From Candidatus Altimarinota bacterium (GTDB taxonomy: Bacteria > Patescibacteriota > Gracilibacteria > JBDHUY01), in contig JBDHUY010000025.1 in the NCBI GenBank assembly GCA_039809385.1, forward strand, positions 1 to 18,596: a stretch of 18,596 nucleotides of DNA, given 5' to 3'. The notes under the pieces are model-generated. The model saw only the letters and a list, made by a program, of their open reading frames with translations, searched no databases and was not told the origin of the DNA. The translations under genes were made by a program, and so were the position numbers. Every line of letters begins with the position of its first letter. The first letter of the stretch is position 1. Below are positions 1-18,261 of the stretch, piece by piece.

Positions 1-698
1 GGTCTACCTTCGCCCAATGACTTGAACCCGCGACCTCCCCGACGCTTCCGTCGGGACGCGCTAGCATTCTTGCGCTAATCCCCGTTAATGGCTCACTATT
101 TGATAGTGATAGTATGGTATTGTTTTCGAGATAGTAACGTAACGATCGGTCTACCTTCGCCCAATGACTTGAACCCGCGACCTCCCCGACGCTTCCGTCG
201 GGACGCGCTAGCATTCTTGCGCTAATCCCCGTTAATGGCTCACTATTTGATAGTGATAGTATGGTATTGTTTTCGAGATAGTAATGTAACGATCGGTCTA
301 GCTTTGCCCAATGACTTGAACCCGCGACCTCCCCGACGCTTCCGTCGGGACGCGCTAGCATTCTTGCGCTAATCCCCGTTAATGGCTCACTATTTGATAG
401 TGATAGTATGGTATTGTTTTCGAGATAGTAATGTAACGATCGGTCTAGCTTCGCCCAATGACTTGAACCTGCGACCTCCCCGACGCTTCCGTCGGGACGC
501 GCTAGCCAACTGCGCTAATCCCCGTTGGTAACCGTATGTCTGAAAACGATCGTATCGTATTCTTTTCGAGATACCAGAGCAAAGTTGTATGTAATTTAGT
601 ATTCTCAATATCTAGGTCTAGTGCTTTACGAGGACTTGAACCCGCGACCTTCCCGACGGTAGCGTCGGGGCGCGCTAGCATTCTTGCGCTAATCCCCG
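1..698 (-). repeat. Tandem array of tRNA-Pro-like pseudo-tRNA units (units start at 1, 148, 295, 442 with 147-bp period; diverged fifth unit at 615); probably continues beyond the left edge
   Basis: GGTCTA recurs at 1/148/295/442/615. Units 1-3 differ by only a few substitutions. The minus strand of 19-84, 166-231, 313-378, 460-524 and 633-698 reads CGGGGAT-TA-GCGC-Dloop-GCGC-G-[20-nt hairpin]-AGGTC-GCRGG-TTCAAGT-C, i.e. tRNA positions 1-61 without an anticodon or 3' acceptor strand. Confidence 0.9.
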
Positions 699-716: not shown

Positions 717-1094
717 TTAATTCTCCAATACTTCTCCTACAGCCTGTCTTGCTTGTTGCAAATAGGCATGTATCTCATTGACAAAGGCCACTACTCCTTT
801 CTCTTTTGCCGATAAAAATCCGTCGAGCAAATGAATCAGATCCCTTTTCTTAGCAGCTTCCAGTGAGGCTCTGGCTTTTTCTAGCGTACCAAAAGAATCT
901 GTTACACAAGAACTGAGTTCGCTACGAACTTGATTCAAGCGTATTAGCCCGGCTTGTGCCATAAGCCGGGATGTTTCTCCTTTTTCAAAAGGTCTCATGG
1001 CATTAACAAGCTCCATCAATGTCTCAAGAAGCTTGATGATATCTTGGGGTGATTTCTCTATGGTACTTGTTCCTACGATTTCTTCGGGAGGCAT
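717..1094 (-). CDS. Hypothetical helical protein (~125 aa; ORF track extends to a TTG at 1154)
   Basis: Open frame with amphipathic-helix-like composition. ATG at 1094 (MPPEEIVG) follows a pyrimidine-rich leader. No recognisable motif. Confidence 0.6.
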   Translation of the reverse strand: MPPEEIVGTSTIEKSPQDIIKLLETLMELVNAMRPFEKGETSRLMAQAGLIRLNQVRSELSSCVTDSFGTLEKARASLEAAKKRDLIHLLDGFLSAKEKGVVAFVNEIHAYLQQARQAVGEVLEN

Positions 1095-1247
1095 AAGGAA
1101 GTGTGGAAAAAATAATCGCGTTCTTACCCTAATCGAAATCGGGAGAGGAGTCAATTATTTGATACAATGCTGAAGTGTACTTCACTTGAAGCTTGTTTTC
1201 CTATGCTTTACGCTCATTACAGTTTTATTCTTTCCTATCCTTTTCCT

Positions 1248-14837: not shown

Positions 14838-14928
14838 TGGCGGAAGGGGGGGGATTCGAACCCCCGCGAGGGAAAACCCTCCTACAGGTTTAGCAAACCC
14901 GCCTCTTCAGCCACTTGAGTACCCTTCC
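14838..14928 (-). tRNA. tRNA-Ser(GCT)
   Basis: GGAAGGG acceptor, anticodon loop TTGCTAA, long variable arm, GGTTCGAATCC, G73 and encoded CCA. Confidence 0.96.
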
Positions 14929-17251: not shown

Positions 17252-17412
17252 TAGAATTCTGGATCTTGGAATATAGCATCTTCTTGCTGCTTTAAAAAAT
17301 ACCAACGTCGGGTTCAGAGAAACTTTGGACCCGCTTTTCTGGCCTTTTGAATTTCTGATTTGGCATTTATTTCGTATTTCGGTATTCTGTTTTAGAATTT
17401 TTCTTTTACTGT

Positions 17413-17809: not shown

Positions 17810-17885
17810 CGCGGGGTAGAGCAGCTGGTAGCTCGCAAGGCCCATAACCTTGAGGTCGTCGGTTCGAGTCCGACCCCCGCAACCA
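17810..17885 (+). tRNA. Initiator tRNA-fMet(CAT)
   Basis: CGCGGGG start with C1:A72 mismatch, CAAGG-CCCATAA-CCTTG anticodon arm, TTCGAGT T-loop, ACCA end. Confidence 0.95.
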
Positions 17886-17893
17886 AAAGATAT

Positions 17894-18136
17894 ATGTACA
17901 GTGTGTATGTTATTTTGAGTGAAAGCGGTATTCTATATGTGGGTCAGACGGATAATCTTTCTCGGAGGTTAGAAGAGCATAATGCAGGAGTATCTTTCTA
18001 TACCAGAAGAAGTAAAAGCTGGAAACTCGTTTATAAAGAAGAATATGCAACCCGTTCGGAAGCAATGAAACGTGAAAAAGTATTGAAAAGCGGAAAAGGG
18101 AGGGATTTTCTGAAACGCTTGGTATCTGGCCCATAA
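17894..18136 (+). CDS. Small GIY-YIG nuclease family protein (UPF0213/YhbQ-like)
   Basis: YSVYVI...LYVGQT.NL.RRL.EHN.G...YT....WKLVYKE....RSEAMKREK.LKSGKGR; 80 aa; starts 8 nt after the tRNA CCA. Confidence 0.92.
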   Translation: MYSVYVILSESGILYVGQTDNLSRRLEEHNAGVSFYTRRSKSWKLVYKEEYATRSEAMKREKVLKSGKGRDFLKRLVSGP

Positions 18137-18181
18137 TCCGCCGCGGCGGATCGTCGGGCACGAGTCCGACCCCCGCAACCA
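18128..18181 (+). pseudogene. Duplicated 3' half of tRNA-fMet with a palindrome insertion
   Basis: GGCCCATAA-[TCCGCCGCGGCGGA]-TCGTCGG-GCA-CGAGTCCGACCCCCGCAACCA versus native GGCCCATAA-CCTTGAGG-TCGTCGG-TT-CGAGTCC... Confidence 0.85.
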
Positions 18182-18189
18182 AAAGATAT

Positions 18190-18261
18190 ATGTACAGTGT
18201 GTATGTTATTTTGAGTGAAAGCGGTATTCTATATGTGGGTCAGACGGATAATCTTTTTTAA
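18190..18261 (+). pseudogene. Truncated second copy of the GIY-YIG gene (23 aa)
   Basis: MYSVYVILSESGILYVGQTDNLF*; first 22 codons identical to 17894. Confidence 0.85.

What the first reader, a model, noticed from the sequence alone, without database searches (positions are those of the whole stretch)
1..698. Tandem array of anticodon-less tRNA-Pro mimics with the anticodon arm replaced by a hairpin cassette
Seen: at least five units on the minus strand map onto tRNA positions 1-61. Each has CGGGGAT, TA, a GCGC D-stem, G26, then a 20-nt hairpin (TCCCGACG-GAAG-CGTCGGGG) exactly where the 17-nt anticodon arm belongs, then AGGTC, GCRGG, TTCAAGT, C, after which similarity stops. Unit 4 (460-524) keeps a canonical D-loop (AGTTGGCTA); the others have AAGAATGCTA. 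Known: a C1-G-G-G-G start with a GCGC D-stem is typical of bacterial tRNA-Pro. Inference: this is not ordinary tRNA decay, because the edit is precise and the unit has been amplified. It could be a tRNA-derived ncRNA array (decoy for anticodon nucleases or for tRNA-targeting integrases) or the footprint of a tRNA-targeted duplicating element.
Basis: partly seen in the sequence, partly recalled or inferred. Interest (0 to 1): 0.85.

Follow-up and report, generated by a model that had tools for sequence, protein, structure and literature searches.

The report
Pseudo-tRNA array beside GIY-YIG nuclease element
The repeat is a tandem pile-up of truncated proline-tRNA gene copies whose anticodon arm has been overwritten by a small palindrome, apparently left by a little-studied family of small nuclease genes that settle at tRNA and other stable-RNA genes in several bacterial groups.

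Summary
Window 1-698 (minus strand) carries five copies of tRNA-Pro(CGG) positions 1-61, each with its upstream flank. In each, the 17-nt anticodon arm is replaced by a 20-nt palindrome.

The array runs off the contig. Its end overlaps contig C20 by 44 exact bases. There lie the intact tRNA-Pro(CGG), two 88-aa GIY-YIG nuclease genes, and two 3' pseudo-tRNA-Pro copies with the same cassette.

The cassette also replaces the anticodon arm in pseudo-copies of tRNA-Pro(GGG), Ile and Leu in this genome. It occurs in pseudo-tRNAs of Bacteroidota too.

Of 69 loci with small GIY-YIG genes from related genomes:
- 55 have a same-strand tRNA within 350 nt;
- 6 more lie in or beside 16S, 23S, RNase P RNA or tmRNA genes.

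Of the first 29 of these loci, 23 hold a partial tRNA copy with a GC palindrome. In the rRNA and RNase P cases similar sequences flank the nuclease gene as inverted repeats.

Best reading: ORF-less, amplified footprints of a stable-RNA-gene-targeting GIY-YIG element. Phage T4/T6 SegB is the closest known system. What the cassette does is unknown. A functional RNA array is not excluded. I found no description of this architecture in seven literature searches.

The parts
632..698 (-). Unit A, the oldest and most upstream 5' pseudo-tRNA-Pro. It has the D-loop variant AAGAATGCTA and the cassette in inverted orientation (CCCCGACG-CTAC-CGTCGGGA).
525..631 (-). Diverged spacer between units A and B. 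It is about 60% identical to the other spacers over the shared columns (my count on the alignment). It keeps the block TATCTCGAAAA.AATAC.ATAC.
460..524 (-). Unit B. tRNA-Pro(CGG) positions 1-26 with the canonical D-loop, then cassette TCCCGACG-GAAG-CGTCGGGG, then positions 44-61.
313..378 (-). Unit C, a 5' pseudo-tRNA-Pro with the cassette and the D-loop variant.
166..231 (-). Unit D, a 5' pseudo-tRNA-Pro with the cassette and the D-loop variant.
19..84 (-). Unit E, a 5' pseudo-tRNA-Pro with the cassette and the D-loop variant.
1..18 (-). Start of the 83-nt spacer. The spacer continues on contig C20 and leads to the intact tRNA-Pro(CGG). Window bases 1-44 overlap the C20 end exactly.
85..165 (-). 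82/83-nt spacer, equal to the sequence that precedes the intact tRNA-Pro(CGG). The spacers at 232-312 and 379-459 are the same.
717..1154 (-). 145-aa ORF directly upstream of the array, with no Pfam or NCBIfam match. It marks the array's outer boundary.
17810..17885 (+). Intact tRNA-Met(CAT), probably the initiator. It is host to a second element of the same kind in this window.
17894..18136 (+). 80-aa GIY-YIG ORF 8 nt after the tRNA. Its last codons and stop lie in the tRNA-derived anticodon stem-loop sequence GGCCCATAA.
18128..18181 (+). 3' pseudo-tRNA-Met. It runs from the anticodon stem to CCA. The region after the anticodon loop is replaced by the palindrome TCCGCCGCGGCGGA (18137-18150), and the T-loop is altered.
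18182..18256 (+). Repeat of the 75 nt that follow the intact tRNA-Met (17886-17960). This covers the first codons of the GIY-YIG ORF and then breaks off.

Best explanation
The array is a tandemly amplified, ORF-less module of a mobile-element family that lives at stable-RNA genes.

Each unit is the 82/83-nt upstream flank of the tRNA-Pro(CGG) gene plus tRNA positions 1-61. The element's conserved GC palindrome sits where the anticodon arm was. The intact tRNA-Pro(CGG) and the element's small GIY-YIG nuclease gene follow directly on the adjoining contig. The nuclease is 88 aa and of the stand-alone Slx1-like/UPF0213 type.

Proposed mechanism (inferred, by analogy with phage SegB):
1. The nuclease cuts the tRNA gene in or near the T-loop.
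2. Recombinational repair between sister or repeated copies duplicates the segment that ends at the break. This gives 5' copies truncated at position 53-61.
3. Later unequal exchange amplifies the unit.

The palindrome belongs to the element. In relatives the same kind of sequence forms the inverted-repeat stem that flanks the nuclease ORF where it sits inside 16S, 23S or RNase P RNA genes. The 14-20-nt cassette looks like that stem without the ORF.

Shown:
- the anatomy;
- the physical link to the GIY-YIG genes;
- the recurrence across tRNA species, genomes and two phyla;
- intact catalytic motifs.

Inferred:
- cleavage at the T-loop;
- repair-driven duplication;
- the reason for the cassette. 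My guesses are that it breaks the long direct repeat into pieces too short for efficient recombination, and/or removes the anticodon-arm identity and target site, and/or is the nuclease's own recognition hairpin.
For: 1. The intact tRNA-Pro(CGG) lies on C20. It is preceded by the same spacer as the units. It is followed after 17 nt by an 88-aa GIY-YIG ORF (Pfam PF01541, E 2.9e-13) and a 3' pseudo-tRNA-Pro with cassette TCCCGACG-CTCC-CGTCGGGA. A second ORF (91% identical) plus pseudo-copy lies 1 kb further on. There is a 44-nt exact overlap with the window start.

2. The same cassette sits in 5' pseudo-copies upstream of tRNA-Pro(GGG) (C20 start, C26 end) and tRNA-Ile (C23). It also sits in a downstream array of 3' pseudo-tRNA-Leu (C18 end, C17 start). 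The flanks are specific to each tRNA.

3. A second element lies in the window itself at tRNA-Met.

4. The GIY-YIG protein has a match in 90 of 151 genomes of the class, counting G000 itself.

5. 27 of the 29 best loci from relatives have a tRNA, and the nearest one is on the ORF's strand. 23 of these 29 have a partial tRNA copy in which a segment, mostly the anticodon arm, is replaced by a GC palindrome.

6. 28 of 40 further loci have a same-strand tRNA within 350 nt. Of the rest, the ORF is inside 23S (2 loci), inside RNase P RNA (1) or beside tmRNA (2). One locus of the first set has it inside 16S. In the 16S, 23S and RNase P cases the ORF is flanked by 13-15-bp inverted repeats such as TCCCGCCCATTCT...AGAATGGGCGGGA.

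7. 5' copies end at positions 53-61, within the T-arm, in all cases read.

8. Bacteroidota genomes carry the same TCCCGACG-NNNN-CGTCGGGA cassette in pseudo-tRNA-Ala and pseudo-tRNA-Pro. One has tRNA-Arg followed by four repeats of [GIY-YIG ORF + 3' pseudo-tRNA-Arg with stem TCCCGAT/ATCGGGA].

9. GIY-YIG lineages track tRNA type: 31 label changes on the tree, against a mean of 42.9 and a minimum of 38 in 200 shuffles.

10. Y7, Y18, G20, R28, H32, N33 and E64 are invariant in 13 aligned proteins.

11. SegB, a GIY-YIG homing endonuclease, recognises the tRNA T-psi-C motif (PMC2330249, abstract). It drives recombination-dependent tandem amplification of a tRNA-containing segment (PMC13096335, abstract and sections 9 and 10).

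12. The 103 nt after tRNA-Tyr (C4) and after tRNA-Val (C11) are 82% identical. Both are followed by GIY-YIG ORFs, so one element type sits at two tRNA genes.
Against: - No cleavage, homing or presence/absence polymorphism was shown.
- The proteins are catalytic domains only (80-105 aa) and lack the DNA-binding domain that gives SegB or I-TevI their specificity. How a target would be chosen is open.
- Clustering of nuclease lineages by tRNA type fits vertical inheritance of old insertions as well as it fits homing.
- The model does not explain why an amplified 5' copy should carry the cassette at all.
- It does not explain why the stem sequence is the same in two phyla while the nuclease proteins compared here from different groups are only 33-40% identical.
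- Several cassette-bearing pseudo-tRNAs have no GIY-YIG gene nearby: pseudo-Ile, pseudo-Leu and pseudo-Pro(GGG) here, and pseudo-Ala in two Bacteroidota contigs.
- The pseudo-tRNA part of the diverged unit A is identical to units C and D outside the cassette, while its spacer is only about 60% identical. That fits gene conversion, but equally purifying selection on a functional RNA.
- GC palindromes of this class are in excess genome-wide: 107 hits against 3-10 in five shuffles. Many are far from any tRNA or GIY-YIG gene. They may therefore be an independent repeat family.
Confidence: 0.62

Rival explanations
1. The units are genes for functional small RNAs. Each unit carries the tRNA's own upstream region and yields a tRNA-like RNA with a stable hairpin. 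This RNA could act as a decoy or as an antitoxin-like inhibitor of the neighbouring nuclease, comparable in layout to the repeat arrays of type III toxin-antitoxin systems.
For: - The pseudo-tRNA part is kept identical in the oldest unit while its spacer has diverged. A spacer block, TATCTCGAAAA.AATAC.ATAC, is also kept.
- Stem variants keep pairing. Three imperfect pairs are G-U type on the tRNA-sense strand: the T...G outer pair of units B-E, and the TG...TG variants on C20 and C26.
- In 8 of the 10 distinct versions I read, the cassette loop has the G-ending form (GAAG, GTAG, TGAG) or a G-initial form (GAAA, GAAT, GCAG) on the sense strand.
- The hairpin forms in the predicted minimum-energy fold of every unit.
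Against: - The units lack the 3' T-stem and acceptor strand.
- Fold z-scores of single units are weak, -1.1 to -1.8.
- The whole 20-mer occurs in both orientations.
- The simple sigma-70 scan found no promoter-like site in bases 1-1300.
- The cassette also sits in the D-loop, at the D/anticodon junction or in the variable region in other loci. That fits a DNA insertion better than one RNA design.
Confidence: 0.15
2. The palindromes are an independent REP- or MITE-like repeat family that inserts into hairpin-prone DNA. Their presence in duplicated tRNA fragments near GIY-YIG genes is coincidental. Only insertions in dispensable tRNA copies survive.
For: - 107 such palindromes in the genome against 3-10 in five shuffles.
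- Many are intergenic and far from tRNAs, for example the family CAAAGTTCAA-TCCGCCGTGGCGGA-TTGAACTTTG.
- Repeat-like copies of the cassette lie outside recognisable tRNA context in a Flavisolibacter genome.
Against: - 23 of 29 GIY-YIG loci of relatives have the palindrome within the partial tRNA copy that abuts the ORF.
- In the 16S, 23S and RNase P RNA cases the same kind of sequence directly flanks the ORF as inverted repeats.
- Only one weak Y1-transposase match exists in the genome, on C2.
Confidence: 0.12
3. The array is the scar of repeated integration and excision of tyrosine-integrase islands at tRNA-Pro.
For: Cargo genes lie downstream of the tRNA between repeated 3' tRNA fragments: a GNAT acetyltransferase and an N6-methyltransferase with a specificity-like subunit.
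Against: - The only two PF00589 matches are on C2 and C3, not on C20 or C25.
- The window array holds 5' fragments with only 82-83 nt between them.
- Integrase scars are 3' fragments with unaltered sequence.
Confidence: 0.03
4. Assembly artefact or chance decay of duplicated tRNA genes.
For: The array sits at a contig end.
Against: - A 177-nt contig lying within the array is present in each of 4 runs from 3 studies.
- The identical 20-nt replacement occurs in four tRNA species and in another phylum.
Confidence: 0.02

Closest known systems
SegB of phages T4/T6, a free-standing GIY-YIG homing endonuclease in a tRNA gene cluster
   Same: - It is a GIY-YIG nuclease gene set among tRNA genes.
- It recognises the conserved T-psi-C stem-loop motif of tRNA genes (PMC2330249, abstract).
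- Its cuts lead to recombination-dependent tandem amplification of the adjoining tRNA-containing segment. Homologues are enriched near tRNAs (PMC13096335, abstract and sections 9 and 10).
- Here the 5' pseudo-copies end in the T-arm and are tandemly amplified.
   Different: - SegB is a phage protein. That it carries a DNA-binding part is my recollection.
- The proteins here are 80-105-aa catalytic domains of the Slx1-like/UPF0213 branch, encoded in bacterial chromosomes.
- The SegB text I read reports amplification of a full-length tRNA gene. It mentions no pseudo-tRNA with a replaced anticodon arm and no palindromic cassette.
Stand-alone bacterial Slx1-like GIY-YIG proteins (UPF0213; PDB 1ZG2 BH0048, 1YWL EF2693)
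   Same: Best solved-structure matches: E 2.5e-07 and 3.1e-05. Same size, with no extra domain. PMC1564403 (passages) describes them as the minimal GIY-YIG form.
   Different: In the passages I read, that family is treated as vertically inherited, probable repair proteins. No link to tRNA genes, pseudo-tRNAs or palindromes is described there.
Non-intron insertions with GIY-YIG ORFs in rRNA genes of Candidate Phyla Radiation bacteria, and classical rRNA intervening sequences
   Same: - Relatives of this genome have the same kind of ORF inside 16S and 23S genes, bounded by a stem.
- PMC11270868 (passages) reports that all GIY-YIG ORFs in rRNA insertions lie in insertions that are not introns. 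It also reports that most insertions sit at the top or base of stem-loops.
   Different: - That paper does not contain the word tRNA or the term 'inverted repeat'. [quoted passage not shown]
- The window's units are ORF-less and lie in truncated tRNA copies, not in a working RNA gene.
REP elements with RAYT transposases
   Same: Short GC-rich palindromes occur in excess in the genome, in both orientations, and are associated with a small nuclease gene.
   Different: The nuclease here is GIY-YIG, not a Y1/HUH enzyme. The genome has only one weak Y1 match, on another contig. The palindromes here replace defined helices of RNA-gene copies.

Membership tests
Functional tRNA gene | Complete cloverleaf with a 7-nt anticodon loop, a closed T-arm and an acceptor stem | tested here: not met
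   ARAGORN and the Rfam tRNA model at E<=1 give no call in 1-698. The sequence ends at position 61 and has an 8-bp stem with a 4-nt loop in place of the anticodon arm.
tRNA-Pro(CGG)-derived sequence | Match to the genome's own tRNA-Pro outside the replaced arm | tested here: met
   Unit B: 26 of 26 scored before the arm and 17 of 18 after it, against G000:C20 c[25452..25528].
GIY-YIG nuclease superfamily (the neighbouring ORFs) | GIY and YIG motifs with the Arg, His and Glu catalytic residues | tested here: met
   PF01541 E 2.9e-13 and 1.6e-16. Y7, Y18, G20, R28, H32, N33 and E64 are invariant in 13 sequences.
Free-standing homing endonuclease gene (SegB-like) | Site-specific cleavage of the ORF-less allele, and copying of the ORF into it | not testable with these tools
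   Indirect only: association with tRNA and other stable-RNA genes in 61 of 69 loci, and lineage-to-tRNA-type correlation.
Free-standing homing endonuclease gene (SegB-like) | A DNA-binding domain joined to the catalytic domain | tested here: not met
   The ORFs are 80-105 aa, and Pfam finds only the catalytic domain. NCBIfam's group I intron endonuclease model matches only residues 4-40, far below its cut-off.
UPF0213 / prokaryotic Slx1-like | Sequence similarity to 1ZG2 and 1YWL, with stand-alone domain size | tested here: met
rRNA-type intervening sequence | Insertion at a helix tip, bounded by complementary ends that extend the helix | tested here: met
   Met for the relatives' ORF-bearing insertions in 16S (L027), 23S (L212, L216) and RNase P RNA (L191). 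For the window's cassette only the form fits: a stem replacing a stem-loop. Excision by RNase III is not testable here.
REP/RAYT system | A Y1 (HUH) transposase gene associated with the palindromes | tested here: not met
   One PF01797 match at 22.7 bits on C2. None on C20 or C25.
Integrase-borne island at a tRNA gene | A tyrosine or serine recombinase gene next to the tRNA, with unaltered 3' tRNA fragments as att repeats | tested here: not met
   The PF00589 matches are only on C2 and C3. The fragments in the window are 5' parts with an altered arm.
Type III toxin-antitoxin (ToxIN-like) | A tandem RNA repeat array processed by, and inhibiting, the adjacent endoribonuclease toxin | not tested
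   Only the layout resembles it: an array, then a nuclease gene. The nuclease family differs, and no RNA data exist.

The most novel reading that the evidence does not exclude
Stand-alone Slx1-like GIY-YIG proteins (UPF0213), so far regarded as orphan repair proteins, may be the nucleases of a cross-phylum family of mobile elements. These elements would colonise the loops of stable-RNA genes: tRNA, tmRNA, RNase P RNA, 16S and 23S. The conserved YCCCG...CGGGR palindrome would be their cis-acting end or recognition hairpin. ORF-less 14-20-nt cassettes would be its miniature derivatives, which overwrite a helix of the duplicated tRNA copy. The pseudo-tRNA arrays would then be either arrays of empty homing sites or RNAs that hold the nuclease in check.
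Probability: 0.35. Interest if true: 0.85.

Novelty: new variant of a known kind. Interest (0 to 1): 0.72.

Why it matters
- It would give a biological role and testable substrates to a very large family of small GIY-YIG proteins of unknown function. The substrates are tRNA genes and a defined hairpin.
- It would extend the SegB principle, a nuclease that cuts tRNA genes and thereby amplifies neighbouring DNA, from phages to bacterial chromosomes.
- It would link the unexplained GIY-YIG insertions in rRNA genes of small-genome bacteria with events at tRNA, tmRNA and RNase P RNA genes.
- It explains why assemblies of such genomes break at tRNA genes. It also warns annotators that ARAGORN can call cassette-bearing pseudo-tRNAs as tRNAs, as happened in loci L025 and L183.

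Tried and rejected
- The exact cassette was not found in 40 related genomes (0 of 40). It is therefore not a conserved sequence of the lineage. Related palindromes with other stems are what recur.
- A metagenome scan with the 32-nt Pro-specific pattern found nothing.
- The wider pattern found one contig, L189, with a pseudo-tRNA-Ala and no GIY-YIG gene.
Most lie in high-GC genomes, which I take to be chance. Among the 80 loci listed I looked only at those under 55% GC or with a T-loop motif after the match.
- No RNA holder was listed for the stretch, so expression could not be examined.
- Contig depths are 1.4 to 2.5 times the flank for the 177-nt repeat contig. They hint at few near-identical units, but the tool states that depth is no copy number.
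- The sigma-70 scan found no promoter-like site in 1-1300. I do not take this as evidence of silence.
- Single-unit fold z-scores were unremarkable.
- The 120-aa open frame at 2-361 runs through the repeats. I take it as spurious.
- The Rfam hit 'Plastid-psbI-rps4' at 14841-14893 is below its cut-off and overlaps tRNA-Ser. I rejected it.
- I considered a complex prediction for a nuclease dimer and a structure prediction, and ran neither. The report does not rest on dimerisation, and solved structures of the family exist.
- The search for homologous proteins gave only 11 close relatives.
- Seven literature searches found no description of small GIY-YIG genes with cassette-bearing pseudo-tRNAs. 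Subscription journals are not covered.
- I could not see the supplements of PMC13096335 and PMC11270868. They list SegB neighbourhoods and GIY-YIG insertion sites, and may bear on this.
That its class belongs to the Candidate Phyla Radiation is my inference from genome sizes and rRNA insertions.
Full report
**What is in the window**

Bases 1-698 hold, on the minus strand, five copies of the first 61 positions of a tRNA-Pro gene. Tandem Repeats Finder reports one array at 1-526 with period 147, 3.6 copies and 97% matches.

I located the units by their shared 5' end (plus-strand coordinates):

| Unit | Coordinates |
|---|---|
| A | 698-632 |
| B | 524-460 |
| C | 378-313 |
| D | 231-166 |
| E | 84-19 |

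The spacers are 110, 82, 83 and 83 nt. Each unit reads CGGGGAT-TA-GCGC-(D-loop)-GCGC-G, then a 20-nt palindrome, then AGGTC-GCRGG-TTCAAGT-C, and there the likeness to a tRNA ends.

ARAGORN and Rfam (E up to 1) call no tRNA here.
- Unit A carries the cassette in the opposite orientation.
- The array does not stop at base 1.

**The parent gene and the far end**

The window is the whole of contig C25 of a 1.87-Mb, 26-contig genome. ARAGORN on the genome finds tRNA-Pro(CGG) at C20 c[25452..25528], 107 nt from the end of that contig.

Read on the minus strand, C20 begins with the last 44 bases of a unit-plus-spacer. These are identical to window bases 44-1. It then continues with the rest of the 83-nt spacer and the intact tRNA. 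The array therefore lies directly upstream of the intact gene. Unidentified further identical units could lie in between.

Unit B matches the intact tRNA over its first 26 nt (26 of 26 scored) and at 17 of the 18 nt after the arm. The 17-nt anticodon arm CGTCG-TTCGGGA-CGACG is replaced by TCCCGACG-GAAG-CGTCGGGG.

The array is present in independent data. In each of four DNA runs from three studies (activated sludge and wastewater), a 177-nt Logan contig lies within the 147-bp array. Its length is one period plus 30. Copy number cannot be read from these contigs.

**The nuclease genes**

Seventeen bases after the intact tRNA-Pro starts an 88-aa ORF with a GIY-YIG domain (PF01541, E 2.9e-13). 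A 3' pseudo-tRNA-Pro follows it directly. This copy starts in the D-loop and runs to ACCA, and its anticodon arm is TCCCGACG-CTCC-CGTCGGGA.

Downstream come, in order:
- a GNAT acetyltransferase gene;
- a second GIY-YIG ORF (91% identical) with an identical pseudo-tRNA;
- an N6-methyltransferase with a specificity-like subunit;
- a GIY-YIG fragment.

The window itself holds another case. tRNA-Met(CAT) at 17810-17885 is followed after 8 nt by an 80-aa GIY-YIG ORF (17894-18136; PF01541 E 1.6e-16). Its stop codon lies in tRNA-derived anticodon-loop sequence. Next comes a 3' pseudo-tRNA-Met (18128-18181) in which the palindrome TCCGCCGCGGCGGA replaces the region after the anticodon loop. Last comes a repeat of the first 75 nt of the element.

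The genome has 12 PF01541 matches. Besides the above they include:
- one 88 nt downstream of the tmRNA gene;
- one next to tRNA-Tyr;
- a frameshifted one between tRNA-Val and tRNA-Ala.

The 103 nt after tRNA-Tyr and after tRNA-Val are 82% identical. One element type therefore sits at two different tRNA genes.

**The cassette is generic**

A search of the genome for the palindrome and a reading of the hits show it in:
- 5' pseudo-copies upstream of tRNA-Pro(GGG), forming an array across the C26 end and C20 start;
- a 5' pseudo-tRNA-Ile upstream of tRNA-Ile(GAT);
- a downstream array of 3' pseudo-tRNA-Leu after tRNA-Leu(GAG), across the C18 end and C17 start.

In each case the flanks are those of the neighbouring intact tRNA. 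Only the anticodon arm is exchanged.

The pseudo-Ile cassette TCCCGACGGTAGCGTCGGGG is the exact reverse complement of the cassette of unit A, including the non-pairing outer bases. The 20-mer therefore behaves as a discrete piece usable in both orientations.

**Relatives**

The exact cassette was not found in 40 related genomes. The GIY-YIG protein, however, has matches in 90 of 151 genomes of the class, G000 included.

Of the 29 best loci from other genomes:
- 27 have a tRNA, and the nearest one is on the ORF's strand.
- 23 have a partial copy of that tRNA in which a segment is replaced by a perfect GC palindrome. The segment is usually the anticodon arm. Sometimes it is the D-loop, the D/anticodon junction or the variable region.

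The usual layout there is [5' copy, positions 1 to 53-61, with palindrome] - [ORF starting in or just after the T-loop] - [intact tRNA]. Several loci also have a 3' remnant downstream. Tandem ORF-less units like those in the window occur too: L039 has an 82-bp period, and L028 and L042 show the same.

The palindromes are of a few related types:
- TCCCGAY...RTCGGGA
- TCCCGCC...GGCGGGA
- TCCGCC...GGCGGA
- CCCCG...CGGGG

I fetched 40 further places from the ranked list. Of these, 28 have a same-strand tRNA within 350 nt, 2 have only an opposite-strand tRNA more than 450 nt away, and 10 have none by ARAGORN. Rfam then placed two of these ORFs inside 23S rRNA genes, one inside an RNase P RNA gene and two just downstream of tmRNA genes. 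L027 of the first set lies inside a 16S gene.

In the 16S, 23S and RNase P cases the ORF is bracketed by 13-15-bp inverted repeats:
- TCCCGCCCATTCT...AGAATGGGCGGGA
- TCCCACCCATTCA...TGAATGGGTGGGA
- CCCGCACCTTTTA...TAAAAGGTGCGGG

These are the same kind of sequence as the cassette, here with the ORF in the loop. Altogether 61 of 69 loci lie at stable-RNA genes.

On a tree of 74 ORF fragments, the tRNA type next to the ORF changes 31 times. In 200 label shuffles the mean was 42.9 and the minimum 38. Clades for Pro, Ala, Ser, Asn and Gln come from different families. This fits target-specific lineages, but also old vertical inheritance.

**Another phylum**

A pattern scan of one genome per species returned mostly chance hits in high-GC genomes. 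Four Bacteroidota genomes, however, carry the very same stem in pseudo-tRNAs:
- a 5' pseudo-tRNA-Ala(GGC) 17 nt before the intact gene (L065);
- a similar one in metagenome contig L189;
- an array of 5' pseudo-tRNA-Pro units in a Draconibacterium genome (L067, L127).

These genomes have 2-17 PF01541 matches each. In L183, tRNA-Arg(TCT) is followed by four 349-bp repeats of [terminator-like hairpin - GIY-YIG ORF ending inside the D-arm - 3' pseudo-tRNA-Arg with the 7-bp stem TCCCGAT/ATCGGGA].

**The protein**

The best solved relatives are the stand-alone UPF0213 proteins 1ZG2 and 1YWL, and more weakly an SLX1 homologue. NCBIfam gives only a sub-threshold partial match to group I intron endonucleases.

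In an alignment of 13 members from tRNA, rRNA and Bacteroidota contexts, the following are invariant: Y7, Y18, G20, R28, H32, N33 and E64. The enzymes therefore look active. They have no second domain.

**Explanation**

The closest precedent is phage SegB. This GIY-YIG homing endonuclease has a 27-bp site containing the conserved T-psi-C stem-loop motif of tRNA genes (PMC2330249, abstract). Its cuts cause recombination-dependent tandem amplification of a tRNA-containing segment in T6, and its homologues are enriched near tRNAs (PMC13096335, abstract and sections 9 and 10).

The window's units end in the T-arm, as do the 5' copies in relatives. I therefore propose that the neighbouring nuclease cuts the tRNA gene there. 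Repair then generates and amplifies copies of the segment upstream of the break. This step is inferred, not shown.

The cassette is not explained by SegB biology. Because the same kind of sequence forms the flanking stem of ORF-bearing insertions in rRNA and RNase P RNA genes, I read it as the element's own terminal stem without the ORF.

Three reasons why it sits in the middle of the pseudo-copy remain open, and they do not exclude each other:
- It splits a roughly 60-nt direct repeat into 26 + 18 nt. By my recollection of the minimal length for efficient RecA recombination, that would slow loss of the element.
- It removes the anticodon arm. That could otherwise be a nuclease target, or could titrate tRNA-binding enzymes.
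- It is the hairpin that the nuclease recognises.

Unit A shows that the pseudo-tRNA part stays identical while the spacer drifts to about 60% identity. This points to gene conversion among units or to selection.

**Rivals**

- *Functional RNA array.* Not excluded. It rests on that conservation, on a conserved spacer block, and on G-U-type pairs on the sense strand. Against it stand the missing 3' half, both orientations of the cassette and its varied position.
- *Independent REP-like palindrome family.* Suggested by a genome-wide excess: 107 against 3-10 in five shuffles. The tight link to the ORFs argues against independence.
- *Integrase scars.* Rejected.
- *Assembly artefact.* Rejected.

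**Novelty**

Seven full-text searches found no account of small GIY-YIG genes joined to cassette-bearing pseudo-tRNAs.

A 2024 survey of rRNA insertions in Candidate Phyla Radiation bacteria reports GIY-YIG ORFs in non-intron insertions. It thought them outside homing, and it does not mention tRNA (PMC11270868, passages). The 2006 survey of the superfamily treats the stand-alone Slx1-like proteins as the minimal, vertically inherited form (PMC1564403, passages).

I rate this a new variant of a known kind: a homing-type GIY-YIG element. It could turn out to be more if the hairpin proves to be a cis-acting end.

Noticed in passing
window 17810-18256: A second element of the same kind. tRNA-Met(CAT) is followed by an 80-aa GIY-YIG ORF, then a 3' pseudo-tRNA-Met with palindrome TCCGCCGCGGCGGA and an altered T-loop, then a 75-nt repeat of the element's start.
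   Followed up: yes
G000:C18:30331-30683 and C17:1-170: tRNA-Leu(GAG) is followed by a tandem array of [88-nt downstream flank + 3' pseudo-tRNA-Leu with cassette TCCCGACCGAAGCGTCGGGG and a changed T-loop]. The array breaks the assembly between two contigs. No GIY-YIG ORF was seen in the assembled part.
   Followed up: partly
G000, whole genome: There is an excess of perfect GC palindromes of the CCCG/CCGC type: 107 hits against 3-10 in five shuffles. They include intergenic families such as CAAAGTTCAA-TCCGCCGTGGCGGA-TTGAACTTTG and CCCCCTTATCAGGGGG preceded by CTGAACCCCCTAG.
   Followed up: partly
L191 (G131:C8), relative: A GIY-YIG ORF sits inside an RNase P RNA gene, just before the conserved AGGAAAGTCCGGGC block (I take the place to be helix P3, from recall). 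It is bracketed by the 13-bp inverted repeats TCCCACCCATTCA/TGAATGGGTGGGA.
   Followed up: partly
G000:C8:28413-29154; L215, L222: A GIY-YIG ORF lies about 90-250 nt downstream of the tmRNA gene on the same strand, in this genome and in two relatives.
   Followed up: partly
G000:C20:19870-25170 (L230): Between successive GIY-YIG/pseudo-tRNA-Pro modules lie cargo-like genes: a GNAT acetyltransferase, a 725-aa N6 DNA methyltransferase (Eco57I-like) and a 495-aa protein with a weak specificity-subunit match.
   Followed up: partly
cassette versus tRNA-Pro(CGG) anticodon loop: The recurrent stem end TCGGGA equals positions 33-38 (U-CGG-G-A) of the anticodon loop of tRNA-Pro(CGG), and TCCCGA is its complement. 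This may hint at an origin of the palindrome at a tRNA-Pro gene, or it may be chance.
   Followed up: no
L050, L064, L107, L122 (Flavisolibacter MAG): Four copies of GCG-TCCCGACGGTACCGTCGGGA-TTGCG lie in repeat-like surroundings without recognisable tRNA sequence.
   Followed up: no
L025, L183 and L179: ARAGORN calls some cassette-bearing pseudo-tRNAs as tRNA genes: Ala(TGC), Arg(TCT) with a 7-bp anticodon stem, and one of undetermined type. This is a possible source of wrong tRNA counts in annotations.
   Followed up: partly
window 17368-17386 and upstream of several tRNAs: A TTTCGAA-like motif recurs upstream of tRNA genes: TATTTCGG (Trp), AATTTCGAAAGG (Met), TATTTCGAATTT (Pro GGG) and TATCTCGAAAAC (Pro CGG spacer). 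Its distance from the gene varies. It may be a promoter element.
   Followed up: no
G000:C8:28716-29154: ARAGORN's tag peptide for the tmRNA (GVKDRIGNYFDRWITFRISSMILA) looks atypical. The tag may be mis-called.
   Followed up: no
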